The notes: generated by a model not told the origin, from the sequence alone. 64,000 nt of DNA from a virus (IMGVR_UViG_3300021399_000137:5938-69937), one strand, 5' to 3'; positions 9,769-49,150 are shown, numbered from the stretch's first letter. Program-made: numbers and translations.

Positions 9769-10500
9769 CTATTTAGTAGGACGAAAAAATTCTGGACAAA
9801 TAACACCTGCCACTTCTATGTCTTCATGACATCTACTGCATGTTCTATATATAGTGTTATCAAGCCCAAATTCTATACTAGAAAGAGTATTTTGTATAGT
9901 AATTAAATCTCTCATATTAAGAGTATCCACATAATGTCTTTTAGCTTCTTCATCCTCAAAATCCTCTCCATTTTTATTTACTATAGTTTCCATAAGTTTT
10001 AGTGTGAAATTATATGAGTCTGGGTCTTGAACTTTACCTTTAGATGTTCTCATTTTAACTTTTTTATCTATTCTCTTAATATCTCCAGAAGATAACAATT
10101 TTAATTGTAGAATATCTCCATTTACTGGTAGAGTACAAGATAACCTATCTTCAATCCCTTCCACATCTAATATTTCAGTTTCCATTTCAGAGATATTAAC
10201 TTCTATTTCTTGTTTAAATCCACATTCAGGACAAGTAATTGTTTGATGATATGTATCTCCAAACGTGATACTTCTAAGTGCAAAAACTAAAAACATAATA
10301 TCATTTTCATGTAATAATCCTGTATCTAAATCTTTAGGTTCTACACAACAAGATTTAATAAGTCTATCAAATACAGACATATCTCTAGTAGTTAATATAA
10401 TTTTCTCTTCTTTGGTTGTCATTGCTCTAAGTGTAACTTCTTTTGGACCTCCTAATAAACCGTTACTAGGAAGCTTGAATGATTTCTCAAAACTTTCCAT
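9769..10500 (-). CDS. Tail assembly chaperone (gpG-like) with Cys4 zinc-ribbon
   Basis: Sits between the tail tube and tape measure genes. Contains CPECG...CSRCH. A 53-codon +1-frame extension follows the stop (see findings). Confidence 0.4.
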   Translation of the reverse strand: MESFEKSFKLPSNGLLGGPKEVTLRAMTTKEEKIILTTRDMSVFDRLIKSCCVEPKDLDTGLLHENDIMFLVFALRSITFGDTYHQTITCPECGFKQEIEVNISEMETEILDVEGIEDRLSCTLPVNGDILQLKLLSSGDIKRIDKKVKMRTSKGKVQDPDSYNFTLKLMETIVNKNGEDFEDEEAKRHYVDTLNMRDLITIQNTLSSIEFGLDNTIYRTCSRCHEDIEVAGVICPEFFRPTK

Positions 10501-31237: not shown

Positions 31238-32746
31238 TTAATTATCTTCATTAATATTTTTATTTAATATGTCAGATGTTTTTGCTGTAGCATAACCTGT
31301 AATTAAAGATTTTAAATCTAATCCTAAACTATCTTGAGCTACTTTAAGTATCTTATCTATTTTTTGAGTATTTTCTTCTATTAATTTAGTTGATTGGTCA
31401 CCATACATTGTAATAGTATCAACATTTGTAAGTGGGGCTGATACTTCTTTTGCAATATCTGGTAATACTTTACATATCATTTCTACTATAGAAGCTTGTT
31501 TCATTTTAGCTTGAGCCTCAGCTTTCTTTTCTATACCCTCAGCTTCTGCTAAAGCTTTAGCTTTTACACCTTCAGCCTCTGCAAGTAATTGAGCTTTTCT
31601 ACCTTCAGCTTCTGCTTCCATTTTAGCTTTAATACCTGCAGCTTCTAATTCCATAGATTGCTTATTAGCTTCTGCTATTTTAATCTTAGCTTGAGCTTGA
31701 TATTCAGCTTCTTTAGCATCTGCTTCTGCTTTTTGTATTCTAGCCTCTTTATTAGCTATAGCCTCTTGTTCTATTTTATATTTATCAGCGTCTGCCTGTT
31801 TTCTAACTAAAGCATCTAATTCTTTTTCTTTTAGAGCTACTTCTTTTTCTTTAAGTTCAGTCATCTTTTCTGCTTTAGCTACTTCTGCAGCTACAGTATT
31901 CTCATTTACTAATTTTTGTTGTTCTGCTTTTTGAATATCATATACAGTATCAGCTTCTGCTTTTTTCTTGTCTTGTTCAATTTTATATGTTGCTTTTTTA
32001 ATTTCTAATTCTTTTTGTTGTTCTGCAATTTTAGCATCTGCTTCTGCTCTAGCTTTAGCTCCCTCTTCATCTGCTAAAGACTCTGCAATTTTAATTTCTT
32101 TTTCTGCTTGAGCTTTGGCTATTTTAGCCGTTTTTTGAATATTAGATAAATTATCTATACCTAAATCTGTAATAGCGTTATTCTCGTCTGTACAAGATTG
32201 TACGTTTAATGATACTATTTCTAAACCTATTCTATTAATATCATCTTTAGCATTTTCTTGAATTTTTTCTGAAAATAATTTTTTATTATTTACTAAATCT
32301 TTTAGGTTCATTTGACCTATAATTTCTCTCATATTACCTTCTAGAACTTGTTGTACATTTGTTGCAATATAATTAGAAGATTGATTTAAAAAATGTTGTG
32401 CTGCTATCTGAATAAGAGCATCATCTTTAGGTATTCTTACATTAGCTACAGCATCCACATCAACATTTATAAAATCTGATGTTGGTACTCTACTAGTTCT
32501 AACATCTATTTGAATTAATTCTAAAGTTAATTTATCAACTCTCTCAAAGAAAGGTATTCTTAATGTTGCTTTTCCTATTAATACCCTAGGTTCTTTTCTT
32601 AAACCTGATATTAAATACACCATATCTGGTGGACATTTTACATAGCTTACTGCTATAAATGTAATTAAAAGTAATATAATTACTCCTATAATTATTGCTA
32701 TAATCATATTTACAAACCTCCTATAAATTATTCTACAATTTTCCAA
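31238..32746 (-). CDS. Flotillin-like SPFH/band-7 membrane protein
   Basis: N-terminal TM helix, SPFH core (...LIGKATLRIPFFERVDKLTLELIQIDV...), and a long coiled coil with EA/AEAEG repeats as in FloT/YuaG. Confidence 0.7.
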   Translation of the reverse strand: MENCRIIYRRFVNMIIAIIIGVIILLLITFIAVSYVKCPPDMVYLISGLRKEPRVLIGKATLRIPFFERVDKLTLELIQIDVRTSRVPTSDFINVDVDAVANVRIPKDDALIQIAAQHFLNQSSNYIATNVQQVLEGNMREIIGQMNLKDLVNNKKLFSEKIQENAKDDINRIGLEIVSLNVQSCTDENNAITDLGIDNLSNIQKTAKIAKAQAEKEIKIAESLADEEGAKARAEADAKIAEQQKELEIKKATYKIEQDKKKAEADTVYDIQKAEQQKLVNENTVAAEVAKAEKMTELKEKEVALKEKELDALVRKQADADKYKIEQEAIANKEARIQKAEADAKEAEYQAQAKIKIAEANKQSMELEAAGIKAKMEAEAEGRKAQLLAEAEGVKAKALAEAEGIEKKAEAQAKMKQASIVEMICKVLPDIAKEVSAPLTNVDTITMYGDQSTKLIEENTQKIDKILKVAQDSLGLDLKSLITGYATAKTSDILNKNINEDN

Positions 32747-32982
32747 TCTTCTGATAACATATCAGCTTGACTTGCTAGCCATCCCAATTGAACACCAGAA
32801 GTTCCTATAAATGCAATAGCTTTATTTCCCATAGCATCATGATTAACATTAATAATCTCATTATTACTATTTACATAACTAATATTAGTTGCTAATTCTA
32901 TATATTGATTTTTACCATTCCATCCATTACGTTGAACTTTCTTTCCTTGCTTTAATGCTTCTAAAGCTTCTCCAAAATTCAT
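32728..32982 (-). CDS. Small phage protein, DUF2829-like
   Basis: MNFGEALEALKQGKKVQRNGWNGKN N-terminus matches a family I recognise from phage genomes. Confidence 0.4.
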   Translation of the reverse strand: MNFGEALEALKQGKKVQRNGWNGKNQYIELATNISYVNSNNEIINVNHDAMGNKAIAFIGTSGVQLGWLASQADMLSEDWKIVE

Positions 32983-33018: not shown

Positions 33019-33050
33019 GACCGTCTATTCCGGTCTGTCAATGTGGGTTC
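33019..33050 (-). terminator. Hairpin plus T-run just upstream of the 32982 gene RBS (terminator/attenuator for the upstream RNA locus)
   Basis: Minus strand GACCGGAATAGACGGTC followed by ATTTTTAAATT. Confidence 0.45.
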
Positions 33051-33250
33051 TCCCAAATGAAATATATGCTTATAGGAGACAAAATCATTTGGTTAGTATT
33101 TCTGCATGCTTCTTGGTCTCTGCCACACTTTCAACTCCATCAAAGTTCCCGTGCATGCCTGGGGTATAGTTATTACTAGAATTTCCTATACAGTACACTA
33201 AACGACTAGCTGTACAAACTGGTCCAGGGACCGTTATATCGGAGTCAATT
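33051..33250 (-). ncRNA. GC-rich structured non-coding region (candidate ncRNA)
   Basis: Local GC well above the window average, several stable hairpins (GGTCCCTGGACC and others), no ORF. Lies between the tRNA cluster and a terminator. On the plus strand, ACUAAACGACUAGC loosely resembles a group I R element. Confidence 0.3.
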
Positions 33251-33324
33251 AATACGTTTTTTCATCTATCAATTTCATATAGCTAGCCTCACTATTTACT
33301 TTATCAAGATATATCCGAACCCCA

Positions 33325-33395
33325 GTGGAGAGATATATTGGAATTGAACCAATAATAAGAATATAAAATTCTTGCTAAACCATTAGCTAATATCT
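33325..33395 (-). tRNA. tRNA with anticodon UUA in the canonical fold (candidate ochre suppressor)
   Basis: Minus strand GAGATAT-TA-GCTA-ATGGTT-TAGC-AAGAA-TTTTATA-TTCTT-ATT-ATTGG-TTCAATT-CCAAT-ATATCTC-T-CCA. All four stems are perfect. It is compact (no nt 26, 3-nt variable loop). Anticodon-loop positions give 5'-UUA-3'. Confidence 0.5.
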
Positions 33396-33475
33396 CATGT
33401 AAGGGATTTTGATTTTATTTTCGGAGGAGTCTCCCTAACTTATACTCAACTCTTATCTGGGAGCTACCCAGCCTC

Positions 33476-33551
33476 TGGTTGCGCAGGTAGGACTCGAACC
33501 TACGACCTTGAGGTTATGGGCCTCACGAGCTACCAACTGCTCTACCACGCG
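33476..33551 (-). tRNA. Initiator-type tRNA-Met (CAU) with C1-A72 mismatch
   Basis: Minus strand CGCGTGG-TA-GAGC-AGTTGGTA-GCTC-G-TGAGG-CCCATAA-CCTCA-AGGTC-GTAGG-TTCGAGT-CCTAC-CTGCGCA-A-CCA. Closely parallels E. coli tRNA-fMet, including the unpaired 1:72 and the GCAACCA end. Confidence 0.7.
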
Positions 33552-33648: not shown

Positions 33649-33733
33649 CATCTCAGTTTACGGACTCGAACCGCTTCCTCCTTTGATAAACTTTCGAGTT
33701 TTGACGTACCCTAATCGCTATCTAGACTGAGAT
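33649..33733 (-). tRNA. tRNA-like element (atypical or pseudo-tRNA)
   Basis: Minus strand has a T-loop GGTTCGAGTCC and a 7-bp acceptor pairing TCTCAGT/ACTGAGA, but I could not obtain a fully canonical cloverleaf. Confidence 0.3.
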
Positions 33734-33850
33734 ATAAAATAGGAGAATTTAGCAGTATCATCTCCTATTCTGTAGGTTTTGTTCTGCTTTTGTCCTACAC
33801 ACAACGATAAATAATCTTTTCATAGATTATATAAATACCGTCAGCTTATA

Positions 33851-34502: not shown

Positions 34503-34772
34503 TTATGAATTATTTGTGCTTAAATTATTGTACTCATTTAAAACAGCTTTATGAATTATTTCTCTTGCTGTAGAATTTATAGGATGAGCTATATCTGAAA
34601 AACCGTCTGGTGTTCTTTTACTTGGCATAGCTACAAATATTCCTTTTTCTCCATTTATAATTTTAATTCCATGAATAGCAATTTCATCATCTATTACTAT
34701 AGATGCTACTGCTAATAATCTGCTATCTTCTCTTCCACTAACTTCATTTACTCTAACGTTTGTTATTTTCAT
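34503..34772 (-). CDS. spoVG: SpoVG family protein
   Basis: MKITNVRVNEV...LAVASIVIDDEIAIHGIKIINGEKGIFVAMPSKRTPDGFSDIAHPINSTAREIIHKAVLNEY aligns along its whole length with SpoVG. Confidence 0.75.
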   Translation of the reverse strand: MKITNVRVNEVSGREDSRLLAVASIVIDDEIAIHGIKIINGEKGIFVAMPSKRTPDGFSDIAHPINSTAREIIHKAVLNEYNNLSTNNS

Positions 34773-34863: not shown

Positions 34864-35664
34864 TTACATATCATAATTAATAATTCCCATATTTTCACAT
34901 ATAGTTTTAAATTTTTCTTTTGACTCCCAGCATTCATCTACTTGTGCTTCAAGATATTTTAAATTATCATCATTCCATAACTCATCCAATTTATAATAAA
35001 CTGGAATTTCATTATCATCATTAATAATTTTTTCTAGTAAATCATAATCTCTTTCATACACATGTAATGATGTATCAAAATGAGTATATGGTCCACATTC
35101 TAACCCTAATCTATGAGCTACATATTTCTGTAATTCTGTAAAATATACGATGTCGAATGTTAAACCTTTAATCAAATCATTACTTCTCATACACACAGTA
35201 GAGCATAGTTTATTATCTCTTATATAATAATGCAAAAACATTGTACATTGAGTATCTCTAGTTACCATTCTATGTCTATCAGGTGTATTAATATTTATTA
35301 CAGCTCTTCTAGAATTTGGATTTCTTCTTAATTCATCAATAGCACATTCTAATTGGTCAAATCCATGTTTATATTTTATAATATATCCATATGCAGAATT
35401 AGCTGTTTTACCATCATCAGAAATATTTCTCCAAAATTTAGAAAAATGGTCTATAAATTCTATGTCGTTTCTTCCTGACCAATACCATATTAATTCGCCT
35501 ATAGCGTAAATCATAGCTTTATCTCTACAACTTAATGTAAGAACATTATTATCTAAATCATTAAAAACAAATTTTTCGTTTAATAATTCTTTAGTTCCAT
35601 TTACCTCTGGAGCCTTTAATAATTTACTGGCTAAATCCTTAAAAAGTGTATTTATTTCTAACAT
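34864..35664 (-). CDS. ThyA-family pyrimidine C5-modifying enzyme with Asp at the specificity position (dCMP hydroxymethylase/methylase-like)
   Basis: RNPNSRRAVINI and catalytic Cys in TQCTMFLHYY. In ...CMRSNDLIKGLTFDIVYF the residue aligned with E. coli TS Asn177 is Asp, as in T4 dCMP hydroxymethylase Asp179. Confidence 0.7.
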   Translation of the reverse strand: MLEINTLFKDLASKLLKAPEVNGTKELLNEKFVFNDLDNNVLTLSCRDKAMIYAIGELIWYWSGRNDIEFIDHFSKFWRNISDDGKTANSAYGYIIKYKHGFDQLECAIDELRRNPNSRRAVININTPDRHRMVTRDTQCTMFLHYYIRDNKLCSTVCMRSNDLIKGLTFDIVYFTELQKYVAHRLGLECGPYTHFDTSLHVYERDYDLLEKIINDDNEIPVYYKLDELWNDDNLKYLEAQVDECWESKEKFKTICENMGIINYDM

Positions 35665-35683
35665 AATATCAATCTCCTTTCAA

Positions 35684-36799
35684 TTATATATTATGCTTAT
35701 TCTTTATATCTTCGAATATTTCAAAACAATCTTTTATAACATCATCCATATCAAAATACTTATACTTTCCAAGTCTACCTGCAAAGATTACTTTGTCTTG
35801 TTTATCTGCTAATTTTTTATATTTTTCATATAAATCTAAATTCTTTTTATCAGTCATAGGATAATATGGTTCTCCTGAAGCTTGAGGATATTCAAATGTT
35901 ATAATAGAAGTGTCTGTTTTTACAGGATTAAACCACTTATGTTCTATTACTCTTGTGTAAGGTCTTTTGTTATCAGTATAATTAACTACTGCGTTACCTT
36001 GATAATTAGATTGATTTATTTCTTTATTAATAAATTTTAAACTTCTATATTCTAATTCTCCATATTTATAATTAAAATATTCATCTATCTTGCCAGTGTA
36101 TATAATATAGTCATAAATGTCTTCATAAGTACTTCTATTTTTAATAAAATCTTTATCTAACATGATATTACATCCTTCTAACATTTTTTCTATCATATTA
36201 GTATATCCATTTACTGGAATTCCTTGATAAATATCGTTAAAATAATTATTGTCGTAAATCATTCTTAGTGGTAATCTTTTAATTATATCTGGACTTAATT
36301 CAGTACAAGATTTACCCCATTGTTTTTCAGTATAACCTTTTATTAATTTTTCATATACAGTTGTTCCAACCATATTTATAGCTTGGTCTTCTAAATTTTC
36401 TATAGTAGGATGTTCTTCTTTATAAGCATCGATTTCTTTTTGTATAATTTCTTCTACTTCATTAGGCCATCTAGTATTAAACATTTTACTAAATGTATTC
36501 ATATTAAACGGTAAATTATAAAGCTCATCGTTTTCTGTTACTGCCAATGGGCTATTTATAAAATTATTAAATTTTGCAAACCTATTTATAAATGACCAAA
36601 CTTCTTCATCACTAGTATGAAATATATGAGGTCCATACTTATGAATATCTATTCCTTTATCTTTATATGTATAACAGTTTCCTGCTATGCGATTTCGACG
36701 GTCAATTACAGTTATTGCATGGCCATCTTCAATTAATAGTCTAGCTAAAGTAGCTCCAGCTAAACCTGCTCCCACAATTAAATAATTAGACATTTTCAT
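35684..36799 (-). CDS. glf: UDP-galactopyranose mutase
   Basis: YLIVGAGLAGATLA...ITVIDRRNRIAGNCYT...IHKYGPHIFHT...NSPLAV...YNLPFNMNTF is collinear with bacterial Glf (FAD-binding GxGxxG). Confidence 0.85.
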   Translation of the reverse strand: MKMSNYLIVGAGLAGATLARLLIEDGHAITVIDRRNRIAGNCYTYKDKGIDIHKYGPHIFHTSDEEVWSFINRFAKFNNFINSPLAVTENDELYNLPFNMNTFSKMFNTRWPNEVEEIIQKEIDAYKEEHPTIENLEDQAINMVGTTVYEKLIKGYTEKQWGKSCTELSPDIIKRLPLRMIYDNNYFNDIYQGIPVNGYTNMIEKMLEGCNIMLDKDFIKNRSTYEDIYDYIIYTGKIDEYFNYKYGELEYRSLKFINKEINQSNYQGNAVVNYTDNKRPYTRVIEHKWFNPVKTDTSIITFEYPQASGEPYYPMTDKKNLDLYEKYKKLADKQDKVIFAGRLGKYKYFDMDDVIKDCFEIFEDIKNKHNI

Positions 36800-37829
36800 C
36801 TACTTCCTTTTTCTTAGATTTAGTAATATGTTTCTCGTTCCACTCATTTATTTTATCTTGCCATAATTCTGTAAATCCTATATAATCTATTTCTTGAGTT
36901 TCGTTAAAGAAATACTTATACCACTCATTATTATATATAGGAACTAGCGTATGTTTTTCAGCTAAATCCTTCTTTATTCTACTCCATTTAAATGTAGAAT
37001 TTAGTTGACCTTTATCTACTTTAAAGCCTACATATTCTCCCCAAGTCTTATATAAATTCATAGACTTTTTAGTCCAAGTATAATCTCCGCCTGAAGCTAT
37101 AGATTTTTTAGGTGTCATTGTATCACCAGAATAAGTTAACCATCCAATATTTATTGTGTCTAATCCATTCTTATATACTTGTAATTGAACATCAAAATCA
37201 TCCCAAGCTTCTATATTATTATAACTAATATTATATTGATTAAACAAATTAGTATTAATATAAGCTATTTGACATATTCTGCCTGACTTAGTATAATAAG
37301 GTAATGTTTCTAAATCTTGACACCAACTAGATGCTTCTGAAATTACACCTCCTAAAGCTGGTTTATAATCAGCAATATTATGAATTACATAATACCAAGT
37401 TTTAAAGAATTGTTCTGGTGTAATTTCTACTTTTTCAGCCTTATATTTACCTGATTTAGTTAGACCTGGTCTAGTATAATATAATTTTGTAATGTCATCG
37501 TCTAATATAAAGTAATCTTCAAATCCCATTTTAAGCATGTTAGCTTGAACAAAATCTCTTTTCTTAGCAGCTCCTCTAAATTCTTGAGATGGACATAATA
37601 CTACTCCTATATTATTAGACGCTTCAACTTCTTCTTTATAATTAATGTAATCATCATCATATACGAATAAATATGTTGGAATATTAGTATTTTTCATCAA
37701 TTGAATTGATGAAGCTTGACCTCCTCTTTTATATGATATAATTACTACAGGAGCTATAACTTTTTTACTATATTCTTCAGTAGCAGTATTTACTAATTCT
37801 GTAGTCCAATTTAAACTTCTATTTTCCAT
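36786..37829 (-). CDS. Putative GT-A-fold glycosyltransferase (DxD-type)
   Basis: N-terminal PVVIISYKRGG beta-strand/Rossmann-like start and FILDDDITKL DxD motif. Overlaps glf by 14 nt and the kinase gene by 11 nt, suggesting translational coupling. Confidence 0.45.
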   Translation of the reverse strand: MENRSLNWTTELVNTATEEYSKKVIAPVVIISYKRGGQASSIQLMKNTNIPTYLFVYDDDYINYKEEVEASNNIGVVLCPSQEFRGAAKKRDFVQANMLKMGFEDYFILDDDITKLYYTRPGLTKSGKYKAEKVEITPEQFFKTWYYVIHNIADYKPALGGVISEASSWCQDLETLPYYTKSGRICQIAYINTNLFNQYNISYNNIEAWDDFDVQLQVYKNGLDTINIGWLTYSGDTMTPKKSIASGGDYTWTKKSMNLYKTWGEYVGFKVDKGQLNSTFKWSRIKKDLAEKHTLVPIYNNEWYKYFFNETQEIDYIGFTELWQDKINEWNEKHITKSKKKEVDENV

Positions 37830-48868: not shown

Positions 48869-49150
48869 TTAATTTTCTCCTCTATATTCTTCTAATATAG
48901 CATATAAGATTTCTTGTCTAGTATCTTCTTTTATAGGAAATGCTATGTTTCTTCCTTTGTCATCATTTGGGAATTTTAAATATTCTCCTTTAACACCAGT
49001 CATTAATCTTATTCCTTTAATAACAACGCTATAATCAATTACTAAATCTATTGTTGCTAAAAAATTTCTATCTAATGGATGTTCTTTTCTATAATTATCA
49101 TCTATTTTAGTCATGTCTATTTTAGTTATAATCATTTTAATAACCTCCAA
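48869..49150 (-). CDS. Divergent SpoVG-like protein (second paralog)
   Basis: LATIDLVIDYSVVIKGIRLMTGVKGEYLKFP...RNIAFPI...RQEILYAILEEY follows the SpoVG pattern A.A.I..D..F.I..IR...G..G.F..MP...R.IA.PI...R..I...VL.EY. Confidence 0.45.
   Translation of the reverse strand: MEVIKMIITKIDMTKIDDNYRKEHPLDRNFLATIDLVIDYSVVIKGIRLMTGVKGEYLKFPNDDKGRNIAFPIKEDTRQEILYAILEEYRGEN

What the first reader, a model, noticed from the sequence alone, without database searches (positions are those of the whole stretch)
33325..33395. Phage tRNA whose canonical fold gives anticodon UUA (candidate ochre/amber suppressor)
All four stems pair perfectly, and the only 7-nt anticodon loop consistent with them is UUUUAUA, giving anticodon 5'-UUA-3' with U33. 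This would decode UAA, and UAG by wobble. The tRNA is unusually compact (no nucleotide 26, 3-nt variable loop) and has U at position 37, so the assignment is tentative. In the same window one in-frame TAG separates two Rad50 fragments (51767-51769). Most genes are intact, so any suppression would be gene-specific, not a global recoding.
Basis: partly seen in the sequence, partly recalled or inferred. Interest (0 to 1): 0.55.

Follow-up and report, generated by a model that had tools for sequence, protein, structure and literature searches.

The report
Accessory phage tRNA with UUA anticodon
A T4-like gut or rumen phage really does carry a compact tRNA gene whose anticodon would read the stop codon UAA, but it is an optional cassette that close relatives lack or have without an anticodon arm, and nothing in the genome needs stop-codon read-through.

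Summary
ARAGORN calls tRNA-Stop(tta) at 33326-33396 on the minus strand, and Rfam tRNA scores 47.3 bits against a cut-off of 29. There were no tRNA calls in 3.84 Mb of shuffled window sequence. All 21 stem pairs are Watson-Crick, CCA is encoded, and no alternative register gives a sense anticodon.

The suppressor reading is weak.
- TAA is the main terminator (43 of 76 ORFs) and coding density is normal.
- Every same-frame neighbouring ORF has its own SD and ATG.
- The Rad50 "TAG split" is a conserved gene split at the zinc hook; a relative has TAA-TGA there.
- The tRNA is abnormal: its D/anticodon stack is one layer short, position 37 is U, and it is 68 nt without CCA.

The tRNA is also dispensable. 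One relative (L238) joins tRNA-fMet directly to the downstream RNA. Another (L232) has a 47-nt "mini tRNA" in its place, with no anticodon arm but acceptor and T stems kept by 5 compensatory pair changes. Other relatives carry sense tRNAs there.

The most likely reading is an accessory cassette in a modular array of tRNA and tRNA-like RNAs. The selection I can demonstrate acts on the acceptor/T/CCA half. At most it is a weak ochre suppressor.

The parts
33326..33396 (-). Compact tRNA gene of 68 nt plus encoded CCA. The central anticodon-loop triplet is UUA, and G+C is 25-27%.
   Evidence: ARAGORN tRNA-Stop(tta). Rfam RF00005 47.3 bits. No calls in shuffles. Identical copies in L027, L028 and L239.
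33476..33551 (-). Initiator-type tRNA-Met(CAU) with a C1:A72 mismatch, 79 nt upstream in the same array.
   Evidence: ARAGORN and Rfam, 57.8 bits. Conserved in L232 and L238. L239 carries a diverged copy with 22 differences.
33397..33475 (-). Conserved spacer RNA motif. It starts right after a tRNA CCA and ends in ...CCCUUACAU just before the next tRNA.
   Evidence: Conserved after different tRNAs in L006, L007 and L008, with 3 covarying pairs. Identical in L239 and 2 differences in L232. Also found in 7 further IMG/VR contigs, followed by a called tRNA in L245 (Met) and L246 (Ser) and by uncalled Ser-like sequence in L243, L244 and L249.
33220..33325 (-). Hairpin module of 106 nt. Its terminal helix (CUGGGG.UCGGA / UCCGA..UCCCUGG) is followed by A-CCA.
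   Evidence: Conserved in L006, L227 and L239. Its pairs are kept through changes, for example two G.U pairs become A-U in L239. Absent in L232 and L238.
33019..33219 (-). Conserved structured 3' RNA or leader that always begins right after an NCCA. It ends in a terminator-like hairpin (33035-33019) just before the Tad2-like gene's SD.
   Evidence: Alignment with L006 shows 8 compensatory pairs. Present in L232, L238, L239, L227, L234, L235 and L237. Terminator scan.
33655..33735 (-). Upstream tRNA-like element, approximate bounds. It has an acceptor-like stem UCUCAGU/ACUGAGA and a T arm GCGG-UUCGAGU-CCGU around an aberrant core. ARAGORN and Rfam do not call it.
   Evidence: Read from the sequence. 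A homologous element in L232 and L234 appears to have compensating stem changes, judged by eye. Missing in L238.
32728..32982 (-). Tad2-like (anti-Thoeris sponge family) gene immediately downstream of the RNA array. It is followed by a flotillin/SPFH gene at 31238-32746.
   Evidence: Pfam PF11195, 81 bits. PF01145 and PF15975 for the flotillin gene.

Best explanation
This is a genuine tRNA-family gene kept in shape by selection, but it is an accessory cassette and not a recoding device.

It sits in a minus-strand array that runs about 33850 to 33019. The order is: tRNA-like element, initiator tRNA, conserved spacer, UUA tRNA, hairpin module ending in ACCA, structured 3' RNA, terminator. The units are joined at CCA|N junctions, and relatives have different sets of units.

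Inferred steps: the array is transcribed as one precursor. RNase P and 3' trimming back to the encoded CCA then release a 71-nt L-shaped RNA.

The part under demonstrable selection is the acceptor/T-arm minihelix with its CCA end, not the anticodon arm. The most likely role therefore needs a tRNA body rather than stop-codon reading. Candidates, all inferred, are punctuation for processing the flanking RNAs, or engaging tRNA-binding enzymes as a substrate or decoy.

If the RNA is charged at all, the short D/anticodon stack and U37 would make it at best a weak UAA (and UAG) suppressor. The phage does not depend on it.
For: - The tRNA is real and its anticodon register is fixed.
- U8, A14, G18G19 and the UUCAAUU T loop are intact, and CCA is encoded.
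- L232 is about 86% identical over 19 kb. Its fMet tRNA, spacer and 3' RNA are conserved, but window 33224-33397 is replaced by GAGUUGU-AAGGUUUAAUAU-ACAAG-UUCAAUU-CUUGU-ACAACUC-A-CCA.
- That L232 element has no D stem and no anticodon arm. Of the 12 acceptor/T pairs, 7 are the same, 5 changed on both sides, 0 on one side and 0 are broken. The T loop is identical.
- In L238 (Tad2 93% identical) the fMet CCA is fused directly to the 3' RNA, so the cassette is dispensable.
- The slot holds tRNA(CAU) in L006 and a UGG-anticodon tRNA, also with U37, in L227.
- Other units ending in NCCA with aberrant cores occur in the same array family.
- There is no recoding signal. Stops are TAA 43, TAG 23, TGA 10. 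Coding density is 87% in the standard code. Same-frame neighbours have their own SD and ATG.
- This was the only 1 of 108 ARAGORN tRNAs in 2.19 Mb of fetched phage loci that combined no nucleotide 26, a 5-bp anticodon stem, a 3-nt variable loop and a 6-nt D loop.
Against: - The D stem and anticodon stem (9-10 pairs) are perfectly Watson-Crick, and U33 and a 7-nt loop are available. A role for the minihelix alone does not explain this.
- All copies that carry the UUA tRNA are identical, and background divergence in L239 is only about 1.6%. Selection on its own anticodon arm therefore cannot be judged.
- The L232 element could be a recent deletion derivative, or a swapped cassette rather than a true orthologue.
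- No processing, decoy or punctuation function was tested.
- About 40 kb of the 118.6-kb contig was not examined.
Confidence: 0.45

Rival explanations
1. It is a functional natural ochre suppressor. A host aaRS charges the tRNA, and it decodes UAA, and UAG by U34 wobble, at low to moderate efficiency. This extends a subset of phage or host proteins or perturbs host termination during infection.
For: - ARAGORN assigns anticodon UUA with U33 in a 7-nt loop, and the call is not flagged as a pseudogene.
- The cloverleaf is complete and perfectly paired, with tertiary-contact nucleotides and CCA.
- It lies beside an initiator tRNA in one array.
- Phage suppressor tRNAs are established for TAG and TGA (bioRxiv 10.1101/2021.08.26.457843; PMC9523058).
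- tRNA-Sup-TTA genes are annotated in standard-code phages such as phiKp24 (PMC8386662).
Against: - TAA ends 57% of ORFs, and the next in-frame stop after a TAA is again TAA in 26 of 43 cases.
- No gene is interrupted by TAA or TAG. The Rad50 split is conserved with tandem stops in a relative.
- Close relatives lack the tRNA or lack the anticodon arm.
- The D/anticodon stack is one layer short and position 37 is U, not a purine. From general tRNA knowledge, both should weaken decoding.
- U73 does not fit the usual donors of ochre suppressors (Gln, Lys, Glu, Tyr, Leu, Ser). This rests on my own knowledge of E. coli identity rules.
- TAA reassignment has not been seen in phages (PMC13037316; bioRxiv 10.1101/2021.08.26.457843).
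Confidence: 0.3
2. It is a decaying or neutral relic. A former sense tRNA lost nucleotides in the anticodon/26/variable region and now persists without function in a recombination-prone tRNA array.
For: - Its presence varies among close relatives.
- It is 68 nt without CCA, and the Rfam model needs deletions in the D loop and the anticodon loop.
- Its G+C is 25-27%, against 46-58% for the other two tRNAs.
- The neighbouring arrays hold several broken or interrupted tRNA-like genes.
Against: - All 21 stem pairs are Watson-Crick with no mismatch or G.U pair. The fold z-score is -3.69.
- The acceptor and T stems are kept by 5 compensatory changes relative to L232.
- The tertiary nucleotides and CCA are intact.
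- The same sequence appears in three independent assemblies.
Confidence: 0.2
3. It is a sense tRNA misread by the programs, for example UUU, UAU or UAA through a shifted anticodon loop, or it is a chance cloverleaf in AT-rich DNA.
For: The sequence is AT-rich and the loop is U/A-only. Rfam and ARAGORN partition the arm differently.
Against: - G26-C38 fixes the register. All 27 suboptimal folds within 3 kcal/mol close the hairpin at 29-35 or 28-36, so UUA is always central.
- No ARAGORN calls in 3.84 Mb of shuffles.
- The Rfam E-value is 5.7e-07.
Confidence: 0.04

Closest known systems
Suppressor tRNAs of stop-codon-recoded gut phages (crAss-like, Lak, Agate, Jade and others; TAG to Gln, TGA to Trp)
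   Same: A phage-encoded tRNA whose anticodon pairs with a stop codon, in a low-G+C gut or rumen phage that otherwise infects a standard-code host.
   Different: Those tRNAs have CUA or UCA anticodons. Their genomes carry many in-frame recoded stops in late genes and are depleted of that stop as a terminator (bioRxiv 10.1101/2021.08.26.457843; PMC9523058). Here the anticodon is UUA, TAA is the main terminator, and no gene is interrupted.
tRNA-Sup-TTA annotations in standard-code phages, for example Klebsiella phage phiKp24 (PMC8386662), and apparently inactive suppressor tRNAs in Zeta crAss-like phages (PMC12386605)
   Same: A predicted stop-anticodon tRNA in a phage with no matching recoded genes. 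The function is unknown.
   Different: No sequence relative was found in INPHARED, IMG/VR, the JGI metagenome contigs or the GTDB genome contigs with the searches I ran. This one is unusually compact (no nucleotide 26, U37) and can be shown to be an optional cassette.
Laboratory ochre suppressors (E. coli supB, supC, supG; T4 psu tRNAs). This comparison rests on my own knowledge.
   Same: A UUA anticodon that reads UAA and, by wobble, UAG.
   Different: Those are point mutants of canonical Gln, Tyr, Lys or Ser tRNAs, with a modified purine at position 37 and standard stem lengths. Here position 73 is U, position 37 is U, and the D/anticodon stack is one layer short.
Anti-defence phage tRNAs: T5 tRNA-Lys against PARIS, tRNA-Tyr against retron PtuAB, and anticodon-loop variants (PMC11464382, PMC11555353, PMC10264068)
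   Same: An accessory phage tRNA, here next to an anti-defence-type gene (Tad2-like). Its value need not lie in codon supply.
   Different: Those tRNAs keep sense anticodons and replace cleaved host tRNAs in translation. A UUA tRNA cannot replace any sense tRNA.
Small stable RNAs C and D (species 1 and 2) of the phage T4 tRNA cluster. This comparison rests on my own knowledge.
   Same: Non-decoding small RNAs encoded within a T4-type tRNA gene cluster and processed from the same precursor.
   Different: No sequence similarity was tested or seen, and their function is also unknown.

Membership tests
tRNA (Rfam RF00005) | Covariance-model score above the gathering threshold, and a call by an independent tRNA finder | tested here: met
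   47.3 bits against 29. ARAGORN calls it, and does not flag it as a pseudogene with -rp. No calls in 3.84 Mb of shuffles.
tRNA (Rfam RF00005) | Canonical cloverleaf dimensions: 7/4/5/5 stems, nucleotide 26, a 7-nt anticodon loop and a 4-5-nt variable loop | tested here: not met
   The stems are 7/4/5/5, but there is no nucleotide 26, the variable loop is 3 nt and the D loop is 6 nt. Read the other way, nucleotide 26 is present with a 4-bp stem or a 5-nt loop. It was the only such case among 108 tRNAs.
tRNA (Rfam RF00005) | Conserved tertiary nucleotides (U8, A14, G18G19, U54-U55-C56, A58) and a discriminator plus CCA | tested here: met
   All are present in the sequence. Position 21 is U instead of A, and position 15 is U.
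Functional nonsense-suppressor tRNA | Anticodon complementary to a stop codon in a 7-nt loop with U33 | tested here: met
   The loop is UUUUAUA and the anticodon is UUA. The register is fixed.
Functional nonsense-suppressor tRNA | Purine at position 37, usually modified, 3' of the anticodon | tested here: not met
   Position 37 is U.
Functional nonsense-suppressor tRNA | Aminoacylation and measurable read-through | not testable with these tools
   This needs acylation assays, reporters or proteomics.
Functional nonsense-suppressor tRNA | The anticodon is conserved among relatives that carry the gene | tested here: not met
   The tRNA is identical only in near-identical genomes (L027, L028, L239). 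It is absent in L238, lacks an anticodon arm in L232, and is replaced by CAU or UGG tRNAs in L006 and L227.
Stop-codon-recoded phage (code 15 or code 4 type) | In-frame cognate stop codons inside conserved genes, and low coding density in the standard code | tested here: not met
   ORFs of 80 aa or more in the standard code cover 87% of the window. The ten same-frame ORF pairs are separate genes with their own SD and ATG, or belong to different families.
Stop-codon-recoded phage (code 15 or code 4 type) | The reassigned stop is depleted as a terminator | tested here: not met
   TAA ends 43 of 76 ORFs, TAG 23 and TGA 10.
Stop-codon-recoded phage (code 15 or code 4 type) | A phage-encoded release factor or aaRS accompanies the tRNA | tested here: inconclusive
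   None appears among the precomputed Pfam hits for gene calls on L027, L222 and L224. Window regions of about 14-22.7 kb and 43-51.5 kb, and 40 kb of the contig, were not covered.
Anti-defence replacement tRNA | A sense anticodon matching a host tRNA that a defence nuclease targets | tested here: not met
   The anticodon is UUA, which is no sense isoacceptor.

The most novel reading that the evidence does not exclude
The UUA tRNA may be one member of an undescribed family of CCA-terminated tRNA and tRNA-like cassettes. Some members lack an anticodon arm entirely. They are shuffled at CCA junctions within a conserved RNA array (spacer motif plus structured 3' leader) in T4-like gut and rumen phages. 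On this reading they act independently of decoding, for example as decoys or substrates for enzymes or defence toxins that target the tRNA acceptor end, or as processing punctuation that controls the downstream Tad2-like/flotillin operon. Alternatively, this could be the first natural phage ochre suppressor, used against host termination rather than for recoding.
Probability: 0.25. Interest if true: 0.7.

Novelty: new member of a known kind. Interest (0 to 1): 0.35.

Why it matters
If it were a working ochre suppressor, it would be the first natural UAA-reading tRNA shown in a phage. It would also raise the question of how a genome that ends most of its genes in TAA tolerates it. My evidence points the other way. 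A stop anticodon found by a tRNA finder is not evidence of recoding. This gene is an optional cassette, and only its acceptor/T half is demonstrably under selection. That is a useful caution for annotation pipelines that flag "tRNA-Sup" genes. It also points to a little-studied modular array of tRNA-like RNAs in T4-like gut and rumen phages that may be worth studying in its own right.

Tried and rejected
- **Exact-pattern scans for the tRNA.** I searched IMG/VR, JGI metagenome contigs and GTDB genome contigs for its T arm plus acceptor, its anticodon arm, and its D arm plus T loop. There were no true homologues. The six anticodon-arm hits contain no tRNA.
- **blastn of the tRNA against INPHARED.** The hits in Lak phages and Staphylococcus phage S6 are chance AT-rich matches without tRNAs.
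- **Loci anchored on the flotillin gene.** 19 IMG/VR and 80 metagenome loci contained no tRNA-Stop. Synteny around flotillin varies, so it is a poor anchor.
- **The 14-mer CCACTGGGGTTCGG.** It gave 111 mostly chance hits in IMG/VR. Only the L006 contig is real.
- **Rad50 TAG read-through.** Rejected: the next ORF has its own SD and ATG, the third piece is in another frame, and the split is conserved with TAA-TGA in L221.
- **A link to the two +1 frame breaks in the GroEL-like gene.** Rejected: neither site contains a UAA-type motif.
- **YrlA / Y-RNA-like identity for the spacer.** Rejected: 17 bits against a cut-off of 69.
- **Tandem-stop or short-extension signals after TAA.** No signal beyond AT-rich expectation, judged by eye.
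- **Conservation of the tRNA in L239.** Uninformative, because the background differs by only about 1.6%.

Full report
**1. The observation**

ARAGORN finds three tRNAs in the window, all on the minus strand: tRNA-Gly(UCC) at 18165-18238, tRNA-Met(CAU) at 33476-33551, and "tRNA-Stop (tta)" at 33326-33396.

Rfam RF00005 scores the Stop tRNA at 47.3 bits against a gathering score of 29, with E 5.7e-07. The fold z-score is -3.69. ARAGORN made no tRNA call in 60 dinucleotide-preserving shuffles of the window, 3.84 Mb in all. This is not a chance cloverleaf.

The RNA reads GAGAUAU UA GCUA AUGGUU UAGC AAGAA UUUUAUA UUCUU AUU AUUGG UUCAAUU CCAAU AUAUCUC U CCA. All 21 stem pairs are Watson-Crick. U8, A14, G18G19 and the T loop are present, and CCA is encoded.

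**2. The anticodon assignment**

The single G-C pair of the anticodon stem fixes the register. In all 27 suboptimal folds within 3 kcal/mol the hairpin closes at 29-35 (5-nt loop) or 28-36 (7-nt loop), so UUA is always the central triplet.

Rfam and the MFE fold close the U-A pair that ARAGORN leaves as positions 32/38. Rfam treats A24 as nucleotide 26. These describe the same physical helix.

Counted either way, the D-stem plus anticodon-stem stack has one layer fewer than a canonical tRNA. Among 108 tRNAs that ARAGORN calls in 2.19 Mb of fetched phage loci, this is the only one that combines no nucleotide 26, a 5-bp anticodon stem, a 3-nt variable loop and a 6-nt D loop. Position 37 is a pyrimidine.

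From general knowledge of tRNA function, both features should weaken decoding. I could not test that.

**3. The genome**

All ORFs lie on the minus strand and G+C is about 27%. The window matches an ENA contig, ERZ12302813 NODE_151, of 118,646 bp. The tRNA region is identical in a Logan assembly of SRR873602.

Portal_T4, Gp23, gp19, gp25 and gp53 families mark a T4-like myovirus. SpoVG and SpoVS homologues, and the source names given to relatives, suggest a Firmicutes host.

The tRNA lies in an 868-nt non-coding gap between a dUTPase gene and a Tad2-like gene followed by a flotillin/SPFH gene.

**4. Is anything read through?**

Standard-code ORFs of 80 aa or more cover 87% of the window. Terminators are TAA 43, TAG 23 and TGA 10. 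The codon a UUA tRNA would read is therefore the phage's main stop.

After a TAA, the next in-frame stop is again TAA in 26 of 43 cases.

Ten adjacent ORF pairs share a frame across a single stop. Their junctions carry SD-like sequences and start codons. Where families could be assigned, the partners are unrelated: SpoVG with a 5'-3' exonuclease, tail collar with FolD, and an unknown protein with a Toprim primase.

However, the upstream ORF ends just after a CPYC zinc-hook motif. The next ORF has AAAGGA and ATG. The ATPase C-terminal part (50814-51449) is in another frame.

A 42%-identical relative (L221) has the same split after CPYC, with tandem TAA-TGA, an SD and an ATG. This is a conserved split gene and needs no suppression.

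The flanking 6.6 kb and 8 kb of the contig show long intact gene calls and no further tRNAs. About 40 kb of the contig could not be read.

**5. Relatives**

No homologue of the tRNA was found in INPHARED, IMG/VR, the JGI metagenome contigs or the GTDB genome contigs. None was found in 99 flotillin-anchored loci either.

Protein-anchored look-ups in the larger collection gave four informative genomes.
- **L239** (Logan SRR30574122, Tad2 98% identical) has the identical UUA tRNA. Its initiator tRNA is diverged (22 differences), and a NUMOD3 endonuclease gene is inserted in the 3' RNA. Outside the fMet cassette the background differs by only about 1.6%, so the identity of the tRNA says nothing about selection.
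- **L238** (ENA ERZ1667847, Tad2 93%) has the initiator tRNA's CCA fused directly to the downstream structured RNA. It has no spacer, no UUA tRNA and no hairpin module.
- **L232** (ENA ERZ27291659, 125.5-kb contig, syntenic, about 86% nucleotide identity over 19 kb) keeps the initiator tRNA, the spacer and the 3' RNA almost unchanged. Window 33224-33397 is replaced there by 47 nt: GAGUUGU AAGGUUUAAUAU ACAAG UUCAAUU CUUGU ACAACUC A CCA.
- **L006 and L227** have a canonical tRNA(CAU) (64 bits) and a 5'-truncated tRNA with loop UUUGGUA (UGG anticodon, also U37) in front of the same hairpin module.

The L232 element is an acceptor stem plus T arm with a short connector that retains the D-loop remnant GGUUUA. 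It has no D stem and no anticodon arm.

Compared with the window tRNA, 7 of its 12 acceptor/T pairs are unchanged and 5 changed on both sides. None changed on one side only and none is broken. The T loops are identical.

**6. What the locus is**

The gap holds a modular array whose units are joined at CCA|N junctions. In transcription order they are:
- an uncalled tRNA-like element at about 33735-33655;
- the initiator tRNA;
- a 79-nt spacer motif;
- the UUA tRNA;
- a 106-nt hairpin module ending in ACCA;
- a roughly 200-nt structured RNA ending in a terminator-like hairpin at 33035-33019, just before the Tad2-like gene's SD.

The spacer follows different tRNAs in other phages and shows covarying pairs. 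It also occurs in 7 further IMG/VR contigs. ARAGORN calls a tRNA directly after it in two of them, Met in L245 and Ser in L246. L243, L244 and L249 carry the same Ser-like sequence uncalled, and L247 and L250 have no recognisable tRNA there.

The 3' RNA always starts immediately after an NCCA, whatever tRNA or tRNA-like unit precedes it. That unit is tRNA-Trp in L235 and L237, a tRNA-like unit with a 42-nt insert in L234, one with a roughly 70-nt insert in L227, and the mini tRNA in L232. Its alignment with L006 shows 8 compensatory pairs.

**7. Interpretation**

Shown:
- a real tRNA-family gene with a fixed UUA central triplet;
- no recoding and no read-through target in the DNA examined;
- variable presence among close relatives;
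- compensatory maintenance of the acceptor/T half in a relative that has no anticodon arm.

Inferred:
- the array is one transcript, processed at tRNA ends;
- the selected role of this cassette lies in the tRNA body and CCA end (processing punctuation, or interaction with tRNA-binding enzymes) rather than in reading stop codons.

I give this reading 0.45. A working, probably weak, ochre suppressor remains possible at 0.30, because the D and anticodon arms are perfectly paired and U33 and a 7-nt loop are available. A neutral relic gets 0.20, and a misread or chance.04.

**8. Comparison with what is known**

Suppressor tRNAs in recoded phages have CUA or UCA anticodons and go with in-frame stops and depletion of that stop as a terminator (bioRxiv 10.1101/2021.08.26.457843; PMC9523058). 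TAA reassignment was not seen in large surveys (PMC13037316).

Stop-anticodon tRNAs without matching recoding have been noted before: tRNA-Sup-TTA in phiKp24 (PMC8386662) and apparently inactive suppressors in Zeta crAss-like phages (PMC12386605).

Anti-defence phage tRNAs keep sense anticodons (PMC10264068, PMC11464382, PMC11555353).

This gene is therefore a new, structurally odd member of the known class of orphan stop-anticodon tRNAs in standard-code phages. Its cassette context is the more original part of the finding.

**9. Verdict**

Interest is moderate to low (0.35). The most novel reading still open is a family of anticodon-independent tRNA-like cassettes, or a true natural ochre suppressor. 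I put that at about 0.25.

Noticed in passing
window 33397-33475 (-); L006 11903-11985; L007 12419-12502; L008 10513-10596; L243-L250: A conserved ~80-nt RNA motif, CCA|GAGGCUGGGUAGCUCCCAGAUA...GAAAAUAAAAUYAAAAYCYCKUACAU. It starts right after a tRNA CCA and ends a few nt before the next tRNA or gene. It shows 3 covarying pairs and occurs in several unrelated-looking gut phage contigs. No Rfam family matches it.
   Followed up: partly
window 33019-33219 (-); L006 ~9770-9960; L232 9482-9700; L238 469-690; L234, L235, L237: A conserved structured RNA of ~200 nt that always begins immediately after an NCCA. It ends in a terminator-like hairpin just before the SD of the downstream gene (Tad2-like or flotillin). 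It has 8 compensatory pairs against L006. It could be a leader or attenuator. In L239 a NUMOD3 homing-endonuclease gene is inserted within it.
   Followed up: partly
window 33220-33325 (-) and ~33655-33735 (-): Two further tRNA-related units that no program calls. One is a 106-nt hairpin whose 7+5-bp terminal helix ends in A-CCA. The other, upstream, has an acceptor-like stem and a GCGG-UUCGAGU-CCGU T arm around an aberrant core. Both recur in relatives, with stem changes that keep the pairing.
   Followed up: partly
L232 9438-9484: A 47-nt 'mini tRNA': acceptor stem, T arm and ACCA, with no D stem or anticodon arm. It sits exactly where the window has the UUA tRNA plus the hairpin module.
   Followed up: yes
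window ~60152-61515 (-): A GroEL/Cpn60-like gene is broken into three reading frames by two +1 shifts. One is near CCA GTA TGT CTT CGG AGG (~60705-60722) and one is at an A6 run, GAG AAA AAA GTT (~60540-60552). The same gene calls appear in two independent assemblies. It could be a pseudogene, a shared assembly error or programmed frameshifting.
   Followed up: partly
window 50814-52960 (-): The Rad50/SbcC-like protein is encoded in three ORFs: an N-terminal ATPase half ending at the CPYC zinc hook (51767-52960), a 99-aa coiled-coil piece (51452-51751) and a C-terminal ATPase part (50814-51449). The split at the hook is conserved in L221.
   Followed up: partly
L006 11533-11905; L234 (extract 478-593); L227 ~829-951: tRNA genes in related phages are interrupted in the anticodon region by inserts of about 300 nt (with a 95-aa ORF), 42 nt and 70 nt. 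ARAGORN calls none of them. They could be introns or disrupted genes.
   Followed up: no
L227 1-68: A 5'-truncated tRNA with anticodon loop UUUGGUA (UGG, Pro-type) also has U at position 37, like the UUA tRNA. A pyrimidine at position 37 may recur in this phage group.
   Followed up: no
window 33476-33551 (-): The phage carries an initiator-type tRNA-Met (C1:A72 mismatch). In L239 the same slot holds a copy with 22 differences, many of them compensatory. This suggests cassette exchange rather than divergence in place.
   Followed up: partly
window 34864-37829 (-): A cluster of a thymidylate-synthase-like gene, a UDP-galactopyranose mutase (GLF) and a TET-associated glycosyltransferase (TAGT), next to dUTPase and a thymidylate-kinase-like gene. 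This suggests hypermodified, glycosylated pyrimidines in the phage DNA.
   Followed up: no
window 31238-32982 (-), 34503-34772 (-), 48869-49150 (-): A Tad2-like (anti-Thoeris sponge family) gene lies directly upstream of a flotillin/SPFH gene that has more than 7,800 homologues in the protein collection. The window also holds two SpoVG homologues, and a SpoVS homologue lies just outside it in L224.
   Followed up: no
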